NCBI GenBank assembly: GCA_020348445.1
Contig: CP070751.1
Span: forward strand, 32,001-96,000
DNA: 64,000 nucleotides
Origin: Thermoplasmata archaeon
GTDB lineage: Archaea; Thermoplasmatota; Thermoplasmata; GCA-020350865
Reading direction: 5' to 3'
Within the stretch, counting starts at the first letter, position 1; every line of letters starts with the position of its first letter. Position numbers and translations under genes: made by a program. This document shows, piece after piece, positions 29,940 through 37,564 of this stretch. The notes under the pieces were generated by a model. The model saw only the letters and a program-made list of their open reading frames with translations, searched no databases and had not been told where the DNA came from.

Positions 29940-32900
29940 TTATCTTCTGAGATCTGCAGAAAATCCGCAATCTGGGCACTGTATTGACGAGGAAATATCT
30001 GCATTGAATAATCTCTTGCATCTCGGGCATCTAACTGTATCGTACACCAAATGATGCGGAATTTCTTCTTCGACTGAGAAAGAGACAGGTTCTATGCCAG
30101 AGATAAAAGTAACTTCTGGCTCCTCGCTTAAGGCTGTTGTATCTGGAATGAACGATATTTCGTCTTCTGTTCCATCAGAGATTTCGGGCTCCTCATCAGG
30201 TATAAATCCTATTTCCTGTGCATCCGAAGTCGGGGTAAAACCTATGGAAAAAGGCCCTTCTACACCGTCGATTTCCTCCATTAAATCCAATGTCTCAGAG
30301 GTAGGTCTTGGACGGCGGCGCATGCGTGATATCGCAGGTACAACAGCGATAATTATGATGGCAACCAACGCAATGATAAGATAAGGCAGCCATGATGAAG
30401 TCTCCCTCTCTCCCGCTTTTTCCTGATGCTCTACAAAGAATGTTATATCCTCTTCCATTGACACTTCGCCTACCATGGCCCTTACATAGAGGGTGTGCTC
30501 GCCCTCCGAATACACGGATGTATCGAGCTCGATTGCGAAGGTTCTGTCTTTTCCCAGGCTTTTCCAGGTTTCGTTATCTATTCTGTATTCAATTGATTGG
30601 ATATCGCCTGTCCCGCCAGTTACCTCACCCATGATGGTTACGACTCCTGTTAGAATGTCTCCTTTGCCAAGGTTATTGAACCTAATATCGATGGGTATTA
30701 CCACTTCTGGAGTCTCAAAGGAATAATTATAACTCTCAAATACGTTTCCAGCTTCATCTGTGGATTTGACCCTGAAATAATATGTTGTTGAAGGAGTCAA
30801 GCCCGTTATTGTGATCATATGTTCTTTTACCTTTGAATCATCTTTTTCAGAGTACCCCATATTCAATTCTGTTCCGTAGATGACCTCGCTGGTACTGGAT
30901 TCGTCTGTAATCCAGGTTATTGTTGCAGTGTACTCGCCTATGATTGTGATCGGGCTACCGATCATTATTGGAGGTGTTATATCTGGTGCAATTAATGTTT
31001 TGAAGGTGTCATCAACTGAGACGATTTCATTGGCATTGGGGCTGCTGTCCCTGGATTTGACCCTGAAATGGTAGGTTGTATCTGATTTGAGGTTTGTCAA
31101 GGTGATGTTGTGTATCAAGACGTAATTATCATCCCTTTTCTCTGATTCATAATCATCCTTATCAAATCCATATTCAACCAAGCTGTCGCTCTTTTCATCG
31201 GTTGTCCACACTATTGAAGCTGTGGAGTGGGTGATCATGGTTACTTGGGGTCCGCTTTCGATATATGGAGGTGTGGTATCAGGGGGACCTTCGGTGTAGA
31301 AATAGATGGTTTCGTCCCCGATACTTGCGTTGTTATCGCTTGGATCTTTGGATTCCACTCGATAATAGTACCTGGTGGATGGTTTCAGACCTGTCAATTT
31401 TATTGAAAATTCCTTCCAATAATAGTCGAGATCCGAATATACCTTTCCATAAGAGTCCGTCTCACCGATTTTGATGATCCAGTTGCATGGTTCGTTCGTT
31501 TTCCATTCTATAATCGCTGTTGTATCAGTTATATCCCTTACCGTAAGCTCTGTTATGACGGGATCTAAGATATCAGGAGTATCGTCTGTCGTAAAATTGA
31601 AATCTTCACTTAAATTGTAATTCAGGCTTGCATCAGAGGAATTGATACGAAAATGGTATGTGGTATCTGACTCCAAACCGAACAACGTGATGGAATGCAC
31701 CCACACCATTTTAATATCGATCACCATGGATCCATATTCGGCGGTGAGACCGTACTCCACCTTACTATCAGCGAGTTCATCAGTATTCCAGAAAATCGTT
31801 GCAGTACTATCACTTTTACCAATGATCTCAACGTTGTAAATTCCAGGCGGTGTTGTATCAGGTAATATCTCGGTTGTAAAATTCCCAATGGGACTTTCCC
31901 CGGGACCGATATTGTTCTCATCATAACCTTTTATCTTGAAATAGTAATCTGTCCCTTCATCTAAACCAGTCAGCGTCATGGAATGGTTATACGTATAATT
32001 GTCAAGATCGCTTTTCGATTCAGTAAGTTGGCTCTGGCTAGTCCCATAATCGATTATGCTGTTGGCCTTTTTGTGAGTGAGCCAGTTGATGGTGGCTGTT
32101 ATGCCGCTCACCTGAACAGAGATGTCAGTGATAATTGGCGGTCTATCATCGTACTCCTGTGTCATTAAGGTTGCCATGTACGCATCGACAATCCCCCAAC
32201 CAAAATCTTCGTTGTATTTATCGCTTTGTTCGGGATCGTATGGATCACCTCTTGCCTCGGCTGTTTCATGAAGAATCCATATCACTTCATCAGGTGTCAG
32301 GTTGGGTGCAACCTCGAGCATCATGGCCACCACACCAGCCACATGCGGTGCAGCAAAGGACGTGCCGCTTGCCTCGATTCCAGTTGGAAGCCCGTACCGT
32401 TTATAGCTGTTGCGCGTGGGTGCTGTTATGAACTGTCCAGGTGCTGAGATGTCGGGTTTTAGGGCACCGTCCACCCTGGGACCCCTGCTGGAAGAAACGG
32501 CTAGTGTATCGTCATCCCGTGATATTGTTTCCTGATCAAAAACCGAAGCAACTACTATTACCTTATCGGGCCAGGCTGTTACACTTGGCGGAGGATTATT
32601 TGGCCCGTCGTTACCAGCAGATGTCACAACAATGATTCCAGATTCAGCTGCTGCAGCAGCCGCTTCTCCGGGTGTTCCGTCTATGTCTGAGCTTATGGAA
32701 ATCACATCGATCCCATCATATTCATCTGGTTGATCCGGCCAATCAGTGTCCTTGTAATCGATAACCCATTGAATTGATCGCGTCATCTGATCTGATGTGG
32801 CTCCAAGATTAATTGAATATTGAACATCTATGATCTTCGCATCTGTTGCCACGCCCATAAAGTCAGGCTCTCCATCCAGGTCCAAATCTGTTGTACCTCC

Positions 32901-33596
32901 TGTCCCCAAGGCGATGCCGGCACAGTACGTACCATGCCCTACCACATCATTTGGATTGTAGGTCCCGTCCTTTGATGTGGCATCTTCTTCGAATGAGACA
33001 CCGGCCACAAATTTACCCATTAATGACTCGTGATACTCATCCACACCTGTGTCGATGATGGCGATATTGATTCCCTTTCCAGAGTAACCCAATGTCCATG
33101 CCGTGTTGGGGGAATATTCTGTGGAGTTTCGGGCCTTGATTGCCGGGTTACTAACATCCAGATGAGGTTCGATTGGTAATTGAAGTTCTATCATTCCCAC
33201 CCCGGGTAATTGGCGAAGTCTCATGATGTCTTTCAAATGGACATCTCTTGCCGAAATGGTGTTGATGAACTCAAAGACGTACTTCAGTTCTAAATCGAAT
33301 TCTGTGACTATTTCTGAATCTGATTGTTTTAGTTCTCGCTCGTATTTTAAGTAAATCGGCACCCGCTCATTTAAATTGGATGCGATTTTTTCATCTATTA
33401 AATCGTCGATACCGTTGCGATTTTTATCCCTTTCCCAATGCTCCCACCAGAAATCATTGGATGATTCGTCCCCAAAATCGGAGTCGATGGCATCACTTGA
33501 AATTGCCACTGAAAAGCTCGATGACAGGAGCATTATTGAAAATAACCAAAACACTGCAAGAACAGTTTTTTGCATTTTGTACACCTTTTTACCCAT
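29940..33596 (-). CDS. Membrane-anchored subtilisin-like (S8) serine protease with five FN3 domains and a cytoplasmic zinc ribbon
   Basis: Signal peptide, catalytic DTG/HGT/GTSFAAPH, oxyanion motif AGN, five A.I.W.T...S...YG repeats, TM helix plus RMRRR, acidic spacer, CPRC..CPDC. Confidence 0.9.
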   Translation of the reverse strand: MGKKVYKMQKTVLAVFWLFSIMLLSSSFSVAISSDAIDSDFGDESSNDFWWEHWERDKNRNGIDDLIDEKIASNLNERVPIYLKYERELKQSDSEIVTEFDLELKYVFEFINTISARDVHLKDIMRLRQLPGVGMIELQLPIEPHLDVSNPAIKARNSTEYSPNTAWTLGYSGKGINIAIIDTGVDEYHESLMGKFVAGVSFEEDATSKDGTYNPNDVVGHGTYCAGIALGTGGTTDLDLDGEPDFMGVATDAKIIDVQYSINLGATSDQMTRSIQWVIDYKDTDWPDQPDEYDGIDVISISSDIDGTPGEAAAAAAESGIIVVTSAGNDGPNNPPPSVTAWPDKVIVVASVFDQETISRDDDTLAVSSSRGPRVDGALKPDISAPGQFITAPTRNSYKRYGLPTGIEASGTSFAAPHVAGVVAMMLEVAPNLTPDEVIWILHETAEARGDPYDPEQSDKYNEDFGWGIVDAYMATLMTQEYDDRPPIITDISVQVSGITATINWLTHKKANSIIDYGTSQSQLTESKSDLDNYTYNHSMTLTGLDEGTDYYFKIKGYDENNIGPGESPIGNFTTEILPDTTPPGIYNVEIIGKSDSTATIFWNTDELADSKVEYGLTAEYGSMVIDIKMVWVHSITLFGLESDTTYHFRINSSDASLNYNLSEDFNFTTDDTPDILDPVITELTVRDITDTTAIIEWKTNEPCNWIIKIGETDSYGKVYSDLDYYWKEFSIKLTGLKPSTRYYYRVESKDPSDNNASIGDETIYFYTEGPPDTTPPYIESGPQVTMITHSTASIVWTTDEKSDSLVEYGFDKDDYESEKRDDNYVLIHNITLTNLKSDTTYHFRVKSRDSSPNANEIVSVDDTFKTLIAPDITPPIMIGSPITIIGEYTATITWITDESSTSEVIYGTELNMGYSEKDDSKVKEHMITITGLTPSTTYYFRVKSTDEAGNVFESYNYSFETPEVVIPIDIRFNNLGKGDILTGVVTIMGEVTGGTGDIQSIEYRIDNETWKSLGKDRTFAIELDTSVYSEGEHTLYVRAMVGEVSMEEDITFFVEHQEKAGERETSSWLPYLIIALVAIIIIAVVPAISRMRRRPRPTSETLDLMEEIDGVEGPFSIGFTPTSDAQEIGFIPDEEPEISDGTEDEISFIPDTTALSEEPEVTFISGIEPVSFSVEEEIPHHLVYDTVRCPRCKRLFNADISSSIQCPDCGFSADLRR

Positions 33597-34643: not shown

Positions 34644-34834
34644 GATACCGCCGTAATTATGTCTAGATTGAAAATAATGTTAAAACTGTATATTATGTTT
34701 TTGGTTGACATGTTGACCTATCCAATTTAATTTTGCTTTTTCCTCTGCTATATCGTTTTCCCTTTATGTTTATTTACCCAAATCAACCCAATCTCTTATA
34801 TATAAAACCGTTCATTTCCGTTTTCTGTGAGAAA

Positions 34835-36733
34835 TTGAAGAACAACATCTACAGTGTAATTGGCATGGGCCTTCTGTTTGTGATCGTTCAGATCATTGCA
34901 ATTGCCATTGCACCCATATACAGCCATACCCAATCCGAGGCCATGGGCGGCAGGGAGACCATCGAAAATCCCAGCTTCGCCTTCTTCTATCTTGGTATCA
35001 TACTTCTGTTCACGTTCGTTATATTGTGGATAGCAAAGCGCAAGAAGGAGAAGTTCATCAAAGTCCTTATTCTGGCGGCTATCTTCATGACAATGGTTTA
35101 CCTTTTCATACCACTTAATATCGCTATTATGTATCCGTCCTCTGGGGATGGATGGAAATTCACGGAAGTGGACGCTGATGTAGTTGCCCTTGAGGCCGAG
35201 GATATTGATGGCGATGGTGTAATCGAGATAATTGCAGGCTGCGCTGACAATAGGATCAGGGTCTATGAGAGTGAGAACCACACTCTTGAGTGGGAGAGCG
35301 GAGATTTAGGTTCCAACATAACACAAATATTGGCCGATAATTTGGATAATGATGAATTTTTTGAAATTGCAGTTGTTTGCGATACCATTAATGTATTTTC
35401 TGGGGAGAACTTATCAAACAATTGGACTCTTGGCCCCGCAAATCTCAGCATCGTCGCAGCTTATGATTTGAATGCAAATGGAACATCTGAACTCATAGTG
35501 GGAACAGAGAATGCGAGCATAATGATATTCGAGTCTGGGTTGCTTGTAAGGGAGATCAACGTCTCGTCAAATCTGCACAATATTTCGCATCTTGACACAA
35601 CTGATGACGGGCAGATAGTTGCCGCCGATAATACGACAATTATATTACTTGATCCCGCAACTGAAGAAATCTTGCTTAAAATAACTGAAAGGGAGGAGAT
35701 AAATGCACTTTTGGTGGTTCATGATCCCTCAGGCGAGGATAACTTAATTGTTGCCGATGCCAACAGGGTTTACTTTTATAACCTGGCCAGTTCGGAATTT
35801 GTCAGGCGTGGTCCCAAGTTCCGCGATGTCGAGGCTATGTACCTTGAGTATTACTCCATTCCAGATTATAAGGATGATATCCCGGATGTCATCGCATTCG
35901 GTGATGATACCGTTTACTTCTCTCCTGATTTGCTGAAAGAACGTGATTCTTATTATTACCTGAGGTTCAGATACGATGTTCACTCGATACTTAGCAAGGA
36001 CCTGGACGCAGACGGTGACAATGAGATGATTATGGGTGTGGATGAAGGTTACAGGCACACGTCCATCGTATTTGGCGAGGGGGCGAACATGGCGCTGCCC
36101 ATAATCATCGCCATCGTCATCGCCTTTTTGCTCACACTAATAGTTCACAAGTATCCTGAATGGTATGTAGTGGACGCTGTTGGTCTTGTCATGGCTATAG
36201 GAGCAACTGTTATACTGGGGGTCACATTTGCGATTCTTCCTGCCATTGTTCTTCTTCTGGTCCTTGCCATATATGACGCCATATCAGTTTACAAGACAAA
36301 GCACATGATAAGCCTGGCTGATAGTGTAATAGATTTAAATCTTCCTGTTTTGTTGGTTATTCCAAAGAAGCTGGGTTACTCATTTAGAAAGGAAAAGCCA
36401 CGTCTAAAGGAGCAGCTTGAATCAGGGGAAGAGAGGGAGGCAATGTTCATGGGACTTGGAGACATAGTCATACCGAGCCTTTTGATCGTGTCCGCCCTTT
36501 CCTTTTTGCCCGATACAAGCAGCGGGATTGGGGTACCAGGCAATCTTCTGGTTTGTATAGGAACCATGATAGGAATCTTGATTGGATTCTCGGTTTTGAT
36601 GAGATATGTCATGAAAGGCAATCCCCAGGCAGGCCTTCCCCTCCTGAACTCGGGAGCAATTACAGGCTATATAATCACCTACATCATCGTTTTTGGTAAT
36701 TTCGGATTCGGCTTCAACCTGAACTTCATATGA
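34835..36733 (+). CDS. Presenilin-family (A22) intramembrane aspartyl protease with a large inserted extracellular domain
   Basis: YPEWY, LAIYDAISV (YD), MGLGD (GxGD) and QAGLP (PAL equivalent). About 318 aa are inserted between TM3 and TM4. The start is probably TTG 34835 or ATG 34865 rather than 34733. Confidence 0.88.
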   Translation: MKNNIYSVIGMGLLFVIVQIIAIAIAPIYSHTQSEAMGGRETIENPSFAFFYLGIILLFTFVILWIAKRKKEKFIKVLILAAIFMTMVYLFIPLNIAIMYPSSGDGWKFTEVDADVVALEAEDIDGDGVIEIIAGCADNRIRVYESENHTLEWESGDLGSNITQILADNLDNDEFFEIAVVCDTINVFSGENLSNNWTLGPANLSIVAAYDLNANGTSELIVGTENASIMIFESGLLVREINVSSNLHNISHLDTTDDGQIVAADNTTIILLDPATEEILLKITEREEINALLVVHDPSGEDNLIVADANRVYFYNLASSEFVRRGPKFRDVEAMYLEYYSIPDYKDDIPDVIAFGDDTVYFSPDLLKERDSYYYLRFRYDVHSILSKDLDADGDNEMIMGVDEGYRHTSIVFGEGANMALPIIIAIVIAFLLTLIVHKYPEWYVVDAVGLVMAIGATVILGVTFAILPAIVLLLVLAIYDAISVYKTKHMISLADSVIDLNLPVLLVIPKKLGYSFRKEKPRLKEQLESGEEREAMFMGLGDIVIPSLLIVSALSFLPDTSSGIGVPGNLLVCIGTMIGILIGFSVLMRYVMKGNPQAGLPLLNSGAITGYIITYIIVFGNFGFGFNLNFI

Positions 36734-36742
36734 GGTGGGAAA

Positions 36743-37378
36743 ATGAGGATATTGGCTATTGCAGATGTCCATGGCTCAAAAGAGGCAAGAAAGAAAGTTG
36801 ATGCCCAGATAAGGGATTATATTCCAAACATCGTGATCGTGGATGGCGATATTACACAGTTCGGCCCCCCTGCATGGGCAGAGGAATTTCTAAACAGTAT
36901 TATGCTGAAGACATTGGCTTTACCAGGTAACTGCGATCCAAGGGGAGTTCTGGAGGCAATTGAGAACAGCCAGGCAATTCCCCTGCATGCCAAAAAAGTG
37001 GATGTCGGAGATTATGCTGTGGTTGGCCTGGGCGGCTCAAATGCCACACCTTTTGGCACACCCTTTGAGCTTTCAGAGGATGAGATATACAGTGCCTTGG
37101 ATGATCTCATGGTTGAGGGAGCTCTGCTGGTTGTCCATGCCCCACCGAAGGGGCATGTAGATAAAACCTCAAGCCAGACACACTCGGGAAGCCAGGCAAT
37201 CGCAGACATCATTTCCAAATACTCACCACCTCTTGTTATCTCTGCACATATACACGAGGCAAGAGGTGTGGAAAGAGAAGGGGCAACCACTTATGTGAAC
37301 CCCGGACCTGCTTCAAGGGGCTACGCAGCTGTTATAGATTTAAATGGTGAGGTAAAGGTCGAGCTGATCCAAAGCTAA
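36743..37378 (+). CDS. Calcineurin-like metallophosphoesterase
   Basis: ADVH, GDIT, PGNCD, HAPP, SAHIHE and NPGP motifs. Confidence 0.9.
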   Translation: MRILAIADVHGSKEARKKVDAQIRDYIPNIVIVDGDITQFGPPAWAEEFLNSIMLKTLALPGNCDPRGVLEAIENSQAIPLHAKKVDVGDYAVVGLGGSNATPFGTPFELSEDEIYSALDDLMVEGALLVVHAPPKGHVDKTSSQTHSGSQAIADIISKYSPPLVISAHIHEARGVEREGATTYVNPGPASRGYAAVIDLNGEVKVELIQS

Positions 37379-37564
37379 GGCTCCCCTATGTCCATATCTG
37401 GTAATTCAATGAGAATTTTGAGGGAGGATTGACTTGATACAAAGCTAAGGCTCCCCTATGTCCATATCTGGTAATTCAATGAGAATTATGAGGGGGGGTT
37501 GACTTGATACAAAGCTAAGGCTCCCCTATGACCCTATCTGGTAATTTAATTAGAATTTCGAGGG
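37371..37564. repeat. 70-bp tandem direct repeat, about 2.8 copies
   Basis: Units start AAAGCTAAGGCTCCCCTATG at 37371, 37441 and 37511. Copies 1 and 2 differ at only a few positions. Confidence 0.95.

What the first reader, a model, noticed from the sequence alone, without database searches (positions are those of the whole stretch)
35135..36088. Presenilin homolog with a ~318-aa seven-motif FG-GAP-like beta-propeller inserted in the TM3-TM4 loop
The flanks are a complete archaeal presenilin-like protease (YPEWY, YD, GLGD, AGLP). Characterized archaeal homologs are about 300 aa with a short TM3-TM4 loop. The insert has seven Ca-binding-type motifs about 40-50 aa apart: DIDGDG, DNLDND, DLNANG, DTTDDG, DPSGED, DYKDD and DLDADG. 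It also has ten N-x-S/T sequons, consistent with an extracellular glycosylated seven-bladed propeller. In gamma-secretase, substrate gating is done by a separate ectodomain subunit (nicastrin). A built-in ectodomain would be a single-chain analog, which I do not know to have been described.
Basis: partly seen in the sequence, partly recalled or inferred. Interest (0 to 1): 0.85.

Follow-up and report, generated by a model that had tools for sequence, protein, structure and literature searches.

The report
Archaeal presenilin with built-in outer propeller
This sediment archaeon's only presenilin-type membrane protease has a roughly 320-residue, seven-bladed, probably sugar-coated propeller domain in place of one short outward-facing loop; I found no paper describing this layout, which is widespread in its phylum and may give the enzyme its own substrate-selecting outer domain.

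Summary
One uninterrupted gene (window 34835-36733, +, 632 aa) encodes a complete archaeal presenilin homologue (PSH). It scores 286 bits on the NCBIfam PSH model, and YD, GLGD and AGLP are invariant. The 7-residue TM3-TM4 loop of the solved PSH is replaced by about 320 residues.

AlphaFold models the insert confidently (pLDDT about 90) as 28 strands, which is seven four-stranded blades. Foldseek and Pfam place it among FG-GAP-type propellers. All ten N-x-S/T sequons lie in the insert, against 2.6 expected. The insert is acidic and follows a Lys/Arg-rich cytoplasmic loop, so it should face outward.

Only three of the seven periodic motifs fit the full Ca-loop consensus (blades 1, 3 and 7).

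It is not an assembly artefact. Independent contigs span both junctions, and about 60 homologues carry an insert at the same site.

All six genomes of the order have this form as their only PSH. Other families of the phylum also carry a large insert at this site (38 of 40 PSH genes in one), modelled as a propeller in one distant group.

This scan had already noted the layout in other genomes. A gating or substrate-selecting role is inferred, not shown.

The parts
34797..34808 (+). TATA-like box (ttatatataaaa) 27-38 nt upstream of the TTG start. This is the likely archaeal promoter and implies a very short leader.
   Evidence: Read directly from the sequence. Promoter function is inferred, not tested.
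34835..36733 (+). Whole gene: a 632-aa PSH with an inserted propeller. It has a TTG start, an alternative ATG at 34865, and a stop at 36731-36733.
   Evidence: P0002 is 100% identical, 632 aa. NF041679, 285.9 bits against a cut-off of 125.
34835..35134 (+). N-terminal protease core, TM1-TM3 (residues 1-100). It includes the Lys/Arg-rich TM2-TM3 loop AKRKKEKFIK, which should be cytoplasmic.
   Evidence: aligns to 4HYC residues 9-101. (helices 2-36, 46-69, 72-99). Sequence.
35135..36088 (+). Inserted seven-bladed FG-GAP-type beta-propeller (residues 101-418). It is acidic (19% D+E, 5.5% K+R) and carries ten N-glycosylation sequons.
   Evidence: FG-GAP_3, FG-GAP, BBS2_Mid, BBS7, Itfg2. (28 strands, pLDDT about 90). 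(Foldseek hits to seven-bladed propellers, target TM-score 0.72-0.76). (sequons and composition).
35201..35227 (+). Blade 1 canonical Ca-loop motif DIDGDGVIE (residues 123-131).
   Evidence: D123, D125, D127 and E131 are kept in 31/31 and G128 in 30/31 of the close group, and mostly kept in the next group.
35465..35491 (+). Blade 3 canonical Ca-loop motif DLNANGTSE (residues 211-219). It is only moderately conserved.
   Evidence: D in 24/31, N/D in 27/31, E in 17/31 of the close group; not kept in group B.
35999..36025 (+). Blade 7 canonical Ca-loop motif DLDADGDNE (residues 389-397).
   Evidence: D389 and D393 are kept in 30/31, and E/D397 in 31/31. The motif is conserved in group B as well.
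36089..36730 (+). C-terminal protease core, TM4-TM9 (residues 419-632). It holds YPEWY, the catalytic D481 (nt 36275-36277) and D543 (nt 36461-36463), and AGLP.
   Evidence: 164 bits to 4HYC residues 109-296. (invariant columns). (helices).
36743..37378 (+). Context only: a 211-aa metallophosphoesterase gene 9 nt downstream. The same neighbour is present in a same-genus genome.
   Evidence: L003 has the same pair, also 9 nt apart. The pair is absent next to the group B and C homologues.

Best explanation
The gene encodes the cell's only presenilin-type (GxGD, MEROPS A22) intramembrane aspartyl protease. Its nine-helix core and both catalytic aspartates are intact. Evolution has replaced the short outward-facing TM3-TM4 loop with a rigidly mounted, N-glycosylated, seven-bladed FG-GAP-type propeller. 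The linkers are only 8-9 residues, and the best-conserved Ca-loop motifs are in blades 1 and 7, the two blades next to the membrane anchors.

Shown: the architecture, the fold, the conservation, the likely outside location, and that it is not an artefact.

Inferred: in gamma-secretase-substrate structures the substrate helix lies among TM2, TM3, TM5, TM6 and TM7. The propeller springs from the outer ends of TM3 and TM4, so it should sit over or beside the outer mouth of the substrate path. There it would act in cis as a substrate filter or receptor. It would either admit only membrane stubs with short or suitable ectodomains, or dock a surface protein or glycan so that its anchor is cut. The insert changes fast while the core stays conserved, which fits a surface domain that tracks changing substrates or ligands.
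For: - **Protease core.** 285.9 bits on NF041679 against a cut-off of 125. E 1.4e-52 to the solved PSH, in two pieces flanking the insert. YD, GLGD and AGLP are invariant in 45 homologues.
- **Fold.** AF2 gives mean pLDDT 82.9, about 90 over the insert. There are 28 strands between helices that end at 99 and start at 420. Foldseek hits seven-bladed propellers BBS9, BBS1 and the KICSTOR complex (chain B) at E about 1e-11. Pfam FG-GAP_3 and FG-GAP pass their cut-offs. The nearest non-PSH relatives are FG-GAP proteins.
- **Outside location.** The TM2-TM3 loop is Lys/Arg-rich and the insert is acidic. The sequon excess is 10 against 2.6 expected. The close group has a median of 8 against 2.7, and sites N148 and N161 are kept in 29/31.
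- **Not an artefact.** A 26-kb Logan contig spans the whole gene with no differences, and separate contigs of a second run cross both junctions. About 60 homologues from many contigs carry an insert at the same core position.
- **Selected, not accidental.** It is the only PSH in 6 of 6 genomes of the order. An insert at the same site is found in families f45 (38 of 40 PSH genes), f27, f38 and f54. A distant group's insert also folds as a seven-bladed propeller.
- **Faster evolution of the insert.** Identity is 50% in the insert against 81-82% in the core within the close group.
Against: - No experiment or computation here shows that the propeller touches substrates or affects cleavage.
- The model's inter-domain geometry could not be inspected. 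pTM is only 0.63 and I had no access to coordinates or PAE.
- No conserved partner or candidate substrate gene was found beside the gene across lineages.
- Natural substrates of archaeal PSH are unknown (review PMC9263693).
- The solved PSH has only a ~7-residue loop at this site and, from my own knowledge, is active in vitro without any partner, so the insert is not needed for catalysis as such.
- The propeller shows no similarity to nicastrin.
Confidence: 0.5

Rival explanations
1. The propeller is a sensor. Binding of Ca2+, a glycan or another outside ligand changes the conformation of TM3/TM4 and so switches the protease on or off. This would be regulated intramembrane proteolysis with the receptor built in, rather than a steric filter for substrates.
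For: Canonical Ca-loop motifs are conserved in the two blades next to the anchors. The short linkers of 8-9 residues could transmit movement to the helices. FG-GAP propellers are typical ligand-binding modules (my own knowledge).
Against: No ligand or signalling partner was identified. No conserved downstream regulator sits beside the gene. In integrins the Ca loops are mostly structural (my own knowledge).
Confidence: 0.2
2. The propeller works independently of proteolysis. It would be a glycosylated surface module for adhesion, envelope organisation or protection in a cell with a weak or missing wall, and it merely uses the abundant nine-helix protease as its membrane anchor.
For: The insert evolves much faster than the core. 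It is heavily sequon-loaded. Similar FG-GAP repeats occur in many large surface proteins.
Against: The insert always sits at one exact site of the core, not at a terminus where an independent module would be simplest. It is kept in the only PSH copy across whole orders and families. The short linkers hold it against the protease.
Confidence: 0.15
3. The insert is a neutral or decaying domain insertion with no present function.
For: Its sequence conservation is low compared with the core.
Against: The frame is open and the fold is confidently predicted. Some sequon positions and the Ca loops are conserved. The insert persists across lineages that share only 14-21% insert identity, and a distant group still folds as a propeller.
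Confidence: 0.04
4. The architecture is an artefact: a chimeric assembly, or two or three genes wrongly joined.
For: None was found. The genome is a metagenome-derived single 5.16-Mb record at 82% completeness, so the question was worth asking.
Against: Logan contigs of two runs cover the gene without any joint. One 26-kb contig spans all of it, and separate contigs cross both junctions; these runs may be the source samples, but the assembler is different. The same layout appears in about 60 proteins from NCBI, JGI, ENA and Logan contigs and in 6 of 6 genomes of the order.
Confidence: 0.01

Closest known systems
PSH / MCMJR1 of Methanoculleus marisnigri (PDB 4HYC, 4HYD, 4HYG, 4Y6K; Pfam PF06550; NCBIfam NF041679; MEROPS A22)
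   Same: Same nine-helix core, the same YD, GxGD and PAL-like motifs, and the same order of helices. E 1.4e-52 over both halves. The NCBIfam equivalog model passes at more than twice its cut-off.
   Different: MCMJR1 has 301 residues and about 7 residues between TM3 and TM4. Here that loop holds a roughly 320-residue propeller, which doubles the protein's size.
Nicastrin ectodomain of gamma-secretase (my own knowledge of structures such as 5A63, 6IYC, 6IDF)
   Same: A large glycosylated domain on the outer side of a presenilin-type protease. For nicastrin it is proposed to exclude substrates with long ectodomains.
   Different: Nicastrin is a separate subunit with an aminopeptidase-like fold and its own membrane helix. 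Here the domain is a propeller and part of the same chain. The top 50 Foldseek matches listed were all beta-propeller structures, none nicastrin. The function is untested.
Tandem PDZ domains of the site-2 protease RseP, and the PA domain of SPPL2a/b/c (my own knowledge)
   Same: These are precedents for an intramembrane protease with its own outer domain. The PDZ pair of RseP is inserted between membrane helices and is reported to act as a size filter. SPPL2 is a GxGD protease with a glycosylated luminal domain.
   Different: RseP is a metalloprotease of a different fold. The SPPL2 PA domain is N-terminal, not inserted in a loop, and SPP-type enzymes lie in the membrane the other way round. 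Neither domain is a propeller.
FG-GAP beta-propellers (integrin alpha head, bacterial and archaeal FG-GAP/VCBS surface proteins; Pfam PF13517, PF01839) and the related BBS2/BBS7/BBS9/ITFG2 propellers
   Same: Seven four-stranded blades with a periodic D-x-D-x-D-G-x-x-E loop.
   Different: Those propellers are parts of soluble or single-pass surface proteins or of cytoplasmic complexes. None is known to me as an insert inside a polytopic protease. Only 3 of 7 blades here keep the full Ca-loop consensus.

Membership tests
Presenilin homologue PSH (MEROPS A22; NF041679 / PF06550) | The family profile is matched above its curated cut-off over the whole nine-helix core. | tested here: met
   NF041679: 285.9 bits against a cut-off of 125. 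PF06550: 235 bits against 23.9. Both match in two pieces that together cover profile positions 2-280.
Presenilin homologue PSH (MEROPS A22; NF041679 / PF06550) | Catalytic aspartates in a YD motif (TM6) and a GxGD motif (TM7). | tested here: met
   Y480-D481 and G540-L541-G542-D543 are present. They are invariant in 45 aligned homologues and align to the same motifs of 4HYC.
Presenilin homologue PSH (MEROPS A22; NF041679 / PF06550) | PAL-like motif in the last helix. | tested here: met
   A599-G600-L601-P602 is invariant and lies within GNPQAGLP, as in MCMJR1.
Presenilin homologue PSH (MEROPS A22; NF041679 / PF06550) | Intramembrane proteolytic activity. | not testable with these tools
   This needs purified protein and a cleavage assay.
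FG-GAP-type seven-bladed beta-propeller | FG-GAP repeat profiles are matched. | tested here: met
   For the insert alone, FG-GAP_3 scores 30.1 bits against a cut-off of 26.9. In the full protein, FG-GAP scores 22.7 against 22.1. BBS2_Mid scores 52.8 against 27. These are marginal to moderate scores. The nearest non-PSH relatives are clear FG-GAP proteins.
FG-GAP-type seven-bladed beta-propeller | Seven blades of four antiparallel strands that close into a ring. | tested here: met
   AF2 gives 28 strands between residues 108 and 410 at pLDDT about 90. Foldseek matches seven-bladed propellers at target TM-score 0.72-0.76. This is a prediction, not a solved structure.
FG-GAP-type seven-bladed beta-propeller | Ca2+-binding D-x-[DN]-x-[DN]-G-x-x-[DE] loops. 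| tested here: inconclusive
   The consensus is met in blades 1, 3 and 7 only. Blades 2 and 4-6 carry acidic but non-canonical motifs. Metal binding itself was not testable.
Nicastrin-like substrate gate of gamma-secretase | Homology or shared fold with nicastrin. | tested here: not met
   Sequence and fold searches gave only propellers. Any likeness would be functional only.
Nicastrin-like substrate gate of gamma-secretase | An outer domain that limits which substrates reach the active site. | not testable with these tools
   An outside location is supported by topology, charge and sequons. Gating needs biochemistry or a structure.

The most novel reading that the evidence does not exclude
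These propeller-bearing PSHs are natural single-chain counterparts of gamma-secretase. The in-cis ectodomain would recognise or size-filter type-I membrane substrates and so decide what a presenilin-type protease cuts. It would diversify quickly to follow the cell's changing surface proteome. If so, they offer a simple one-polypeptide system for studying how ectodomains control presenilin-type proteolysis.
Probability: 0.4. Interest if true: 0.8.

Novelty: new variant of a known kind. Interest (0 to 1): 0.62.

Why it matters
How presenilin-type proteases choose substrates is a central open question for gamma-secretase, where the answer involves separate subunits that are hard to dissect. Archaeal PSH is the field's minimal model precisely because it has no partners.

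A natural PSH with an outer domain built into the same chain, next to the helices that line the substrate path, could be compared directly with propeller-less relatives that share 57-62% identity in the core. This would test whether and how an ectodomain controls access.

The layout is also the standard form of the enzyme in whole lineages of Thermoplasmatota, including abundant marine ones according to earlier notes of this scan. So whatever it does is part of the normal cell-surface biology of those archaea.

Tried and rejected
- **Chimeric assembly.** Rejected.
- **Expression.** No RNA holder is listed among the runs found, so nothing can be said about expression.
- **Recent donor of the insert in the same genome.** Only weak FG-GAP repeat matches in two other genes, E 7e-10 and worse. 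No donor was found.
- **Conserved partner or substrate gene beside it.** The downstream metallophosphoesterase is shared only within the genus. Groups B and C have other neighbours.
- **One origin or several.**
  - FastTree and IQ-TREE trees of the core leave the deep nodes unresolved.
  - An AU test does not reject holding groups A-D together (lnL difference 4.6, p-AU 0.378). The group was defined after seeing the tree, so a single origin is allowed but not shown.
  - Groups E and F fall elsewhere in the tree.
- **Profile comparison of inserts.** A against B is clear (99.3%, 300 columns). A against C is weak (54%). A against D, E and F is inconclusive. Their inserts may be very diverged propellers or other folds. 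Only group C was folded.
- **Literature.** Five full-text searches found no description of the layout, and a sixth, for a preprint of the Raut paper, found none. The most relevant paper, Raut, Glass and Lieberman 2021 (Proteins 89:232), is not held and could not be read. Prior mention there cannot be excluded.
- **Inter-domain geometry of the model.** Coordinates and PAE are not available to me.
- **Not run.** No complex prediction was run, because no binding claim is made.

Full report
**What is there.** The frame 34733-36733 (+) is open without interruption.
- The public gene call starts at TTG 34835 and gives 632 residues (P0002, 100% identical). An in-frame ATG lies at 34865.
- A TATA-like stretch at 34797-34808 sits 27-38 nt upstream of the TTG. 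Promoter function is inferred.
- Pfam PF06550 (235 bits) and the NCBIfam PSH equivalog NF041679 (285.9 bits, cut-off 125) both match, each in two pieces.
- Against solved structures, the only protease hit is PSH of Methanoculleus marisnigri (4HYC/4HYG, E 1.4e-52). Query 8-103 aligns to chain 9-101, and query 428-623 to chain 109-296.
- So the roughly 7-residue TM3-TM4 loop of the solved enzyme corresponds here to about 320 residues.
- YPEWY, Y480-D481, G540-L-G-D543 and A599-G-L-P602 are invariant in 45 aligned homologues.

**The insert is a propeller.**
- AlphaFold2, run with a 45-sequence alignment, gives mean pLDDT 82.9 and about 90 across the insert.
- Helices end at residue 99 and resume at 420. 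Between them lie 28 strands (108-410), which is seven blades of four. The linkers are only 8-9 residues on each side.
- Foldseek against the PDB returns seven-bladed propellers: BBS9, BBS1, chain B of the KICSTOR complex and WD40 proteins. E is about 1e-11 and the target TM-score is 0.72-0.76.
- Pfam finds FG-GAP_3, FG-GAP, BBS2_Mid, BBS7 and Itfg2 in the insert.
- An exhaustive search with the insert alone gives 963 proteins at E <= 0.001. Apart from two PSH entries, the best of these are multi-repeat surface proteins. The five non-PSH ones I checked are clear FG-GAP proteins.
- The same genome holds no close paralogue of the insert.

**Motifs.**
- One acidic motif occurs per blade, at 123, about 170, 211, 254, 297, 344 and 389.
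- The full Ca-loop consensus D-x-[DN]-x-[DN]-G-x-x-[DE] is met in blades 1, 3 and 7.
- Blades 1 and 7 flank the membrane anchors. They keep the motif in 30-31 of 31 close homologues, and largely in the next group. Blade 3 keeps it only partly, and the other blades are non-canonical.

**Which side of the membrane.**
- The TM2-TM3 loop is AKRKKEKFIK and the TM6-TM7 loop is also Lys/Arg-rich. The insert has 19% D+E and 5.5% K+R.
- With the established presenilin/PSH topology (N-terminus inside; my own knowledge), the TM3-TM4 loop faces out.
- All ten N-x-S/T sequons of the protein lie in the insert. Shuffles give 2.6 +/- 1.5, and 0 of 5000 reach 10.
- The excess holds across the close group (median 8 against 2.7 expected, and 0 in the rest of the protein). 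Positions N148 and N161 are kept in 29 of 31.
- This points to an N-glycosylated extracellular domain. Glycosylation itself was not tested.

**Not an artefact.**
- Two sediment-metagenome runs hold the gene. They may be the source samples.
- In Logan's separate assemblies, one 26-kb contig covers 34300-37300 with no differences. In the second run, contigs 34736-35722 and 35709-36316 cross both junctions. No joints were reported.
- About 60 proteins from NCBI, JGI, ENA and Logan contigs carry an insert of 240-420 residues at the same core position, profile 95-106.

**Distribution.**
- The window's genome has only this PSH. All six species genomes of its order have the split match in one 649-674-aa frame and no second PSH. 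NCBI labels the relatives Methanomassiliicoccales or Thermoplasmata archaeon.
- Other families of the same class have ordinary PSH genes in open frames of about 290-390 residues. Canonical relatives share 57-62% identity with the C-terminal core.
- In a 401-genome sample of the phylum, many families are canonical and others carry the insert.
- Family f45 has frames of 684-902 residues in 38 of 40 PSH genes across 12 genera.
- Genomes of f27, f38 and f54 also have it.
- A distant group (C, seen on a TARA ocean contig) shares only a weak profile match with the window's insert. It still folds as a seven-bladed propeller (pLDDT 84, pTM 0.87; Foldseek hits to LGI1-EPTP, the KICSTOR complex and Lis1).
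- Trees of the core do not resolve whether the insertion arose once. An AU test does not reject one clade for groups A-D (p 0.378), but I chose that grouping after seeing the tree.
- Earlier notes of this scan report the same layout in Marine Group II genomes. My f45 result agrees in kind, though the group codes cannot be matched to names.

**Evolutionary rate.** Within the close group the cores are 81-82% identical to the window's protein and the insert is 50%. Against the next group the figures are 40-61% and 17%. Blades 1 and 2 are the best kept, and blades 3 and 4 the least.

**How it most likely works (inferred).**
- A propeller's two ends lie side by side, so it can replace a short loop without disturbing the helices.
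- The short linkers and the conserved Ca loops in the anchor-side blades suggest a rigid mount close to the membrane.
- In gamma-secretase-substrate structures the substrate helix lies among TM2, TM3, TM5, TM6 and TM7 (my own knowledge). A domain rising from TM3/TM4 should therefore overlook the outer mouth of that path.
- My best reading, about 0.5, is a cis-acting substrate filter or receptor.
- The rivals are a ligand- or Ca-sensing switch (0.2), a surface module unrelated to proteolysis (0.15), a neutral relic (0.04) and an artefact (0.01).
- No conserved neighbour points to a substrate. Natural PSH substrates in archaea are unknown (PMC9263693).

**Comparison and novelty.**
- The protein is a true member of the PSH family, and its insert is a true FG-GAP-type propeller. 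It is not related to nicastrin.
- Built-in outer domains exist in other intramembrane proteases: the RseP PDZ tandem and the SPPL2 PA domain (my own knowledge). The principle is therefore known.
- A propeller inside a presenilin-type core appears undescribed in the searchable literature. One relevant paper could not be read.
- I class it as a new variant of a known kind.

Noticed in passing
window 37365-37564: Three tandem 70-bp units (2.9 copies, 92% matches) begin at the last codons and stop of the metallophosphoesterase gene. An earlier first-reader note also lists them.
   Followed up: no
window 29940-33596 (-): A 1218-aa surface protein. It has an S8 subtilase domain, then about five FN3 / purple-acid-phosphatase-N-like domains, one C-terminal membrane helix and a cytoplasmic tail ending in a CxxC...CxxC zinc ribbon. 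It is a large type-I membrane protein, which is the kind of protein a presenilin-type protease could process after shedding. That link is pure speculation.
   Followed up: partly
proteins P0077, P0080, P0081, P0086 and P0066-P0076: Other PSH variants exist. Some carry an insert of about 90-120 residues near profile position 272-286, late in the core. Others carry an N-terminal extension of 80-140 residues.
   Followed up: no
window 36743-37378; L003 7915-8550; protein P0107: A 211-aa metallophosphoesterase gene follows the PSH gene after 9 nt, both here and in a same-genus genome. One metagenomic protein (P0107, 464 aa) carries both PSH and metallophosphoesterase Pfam domains. This hints at a wider linkage of the two genes.
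   Followed up: partly
whole genome G000: The genome record is a single 5.16-Mb piece at 82% completeness. It is much larger than its same-genus relatives (2.3-3.7 Mb) and than most genomes of the class (1.2-2.3 Mb).
   Followed up: no
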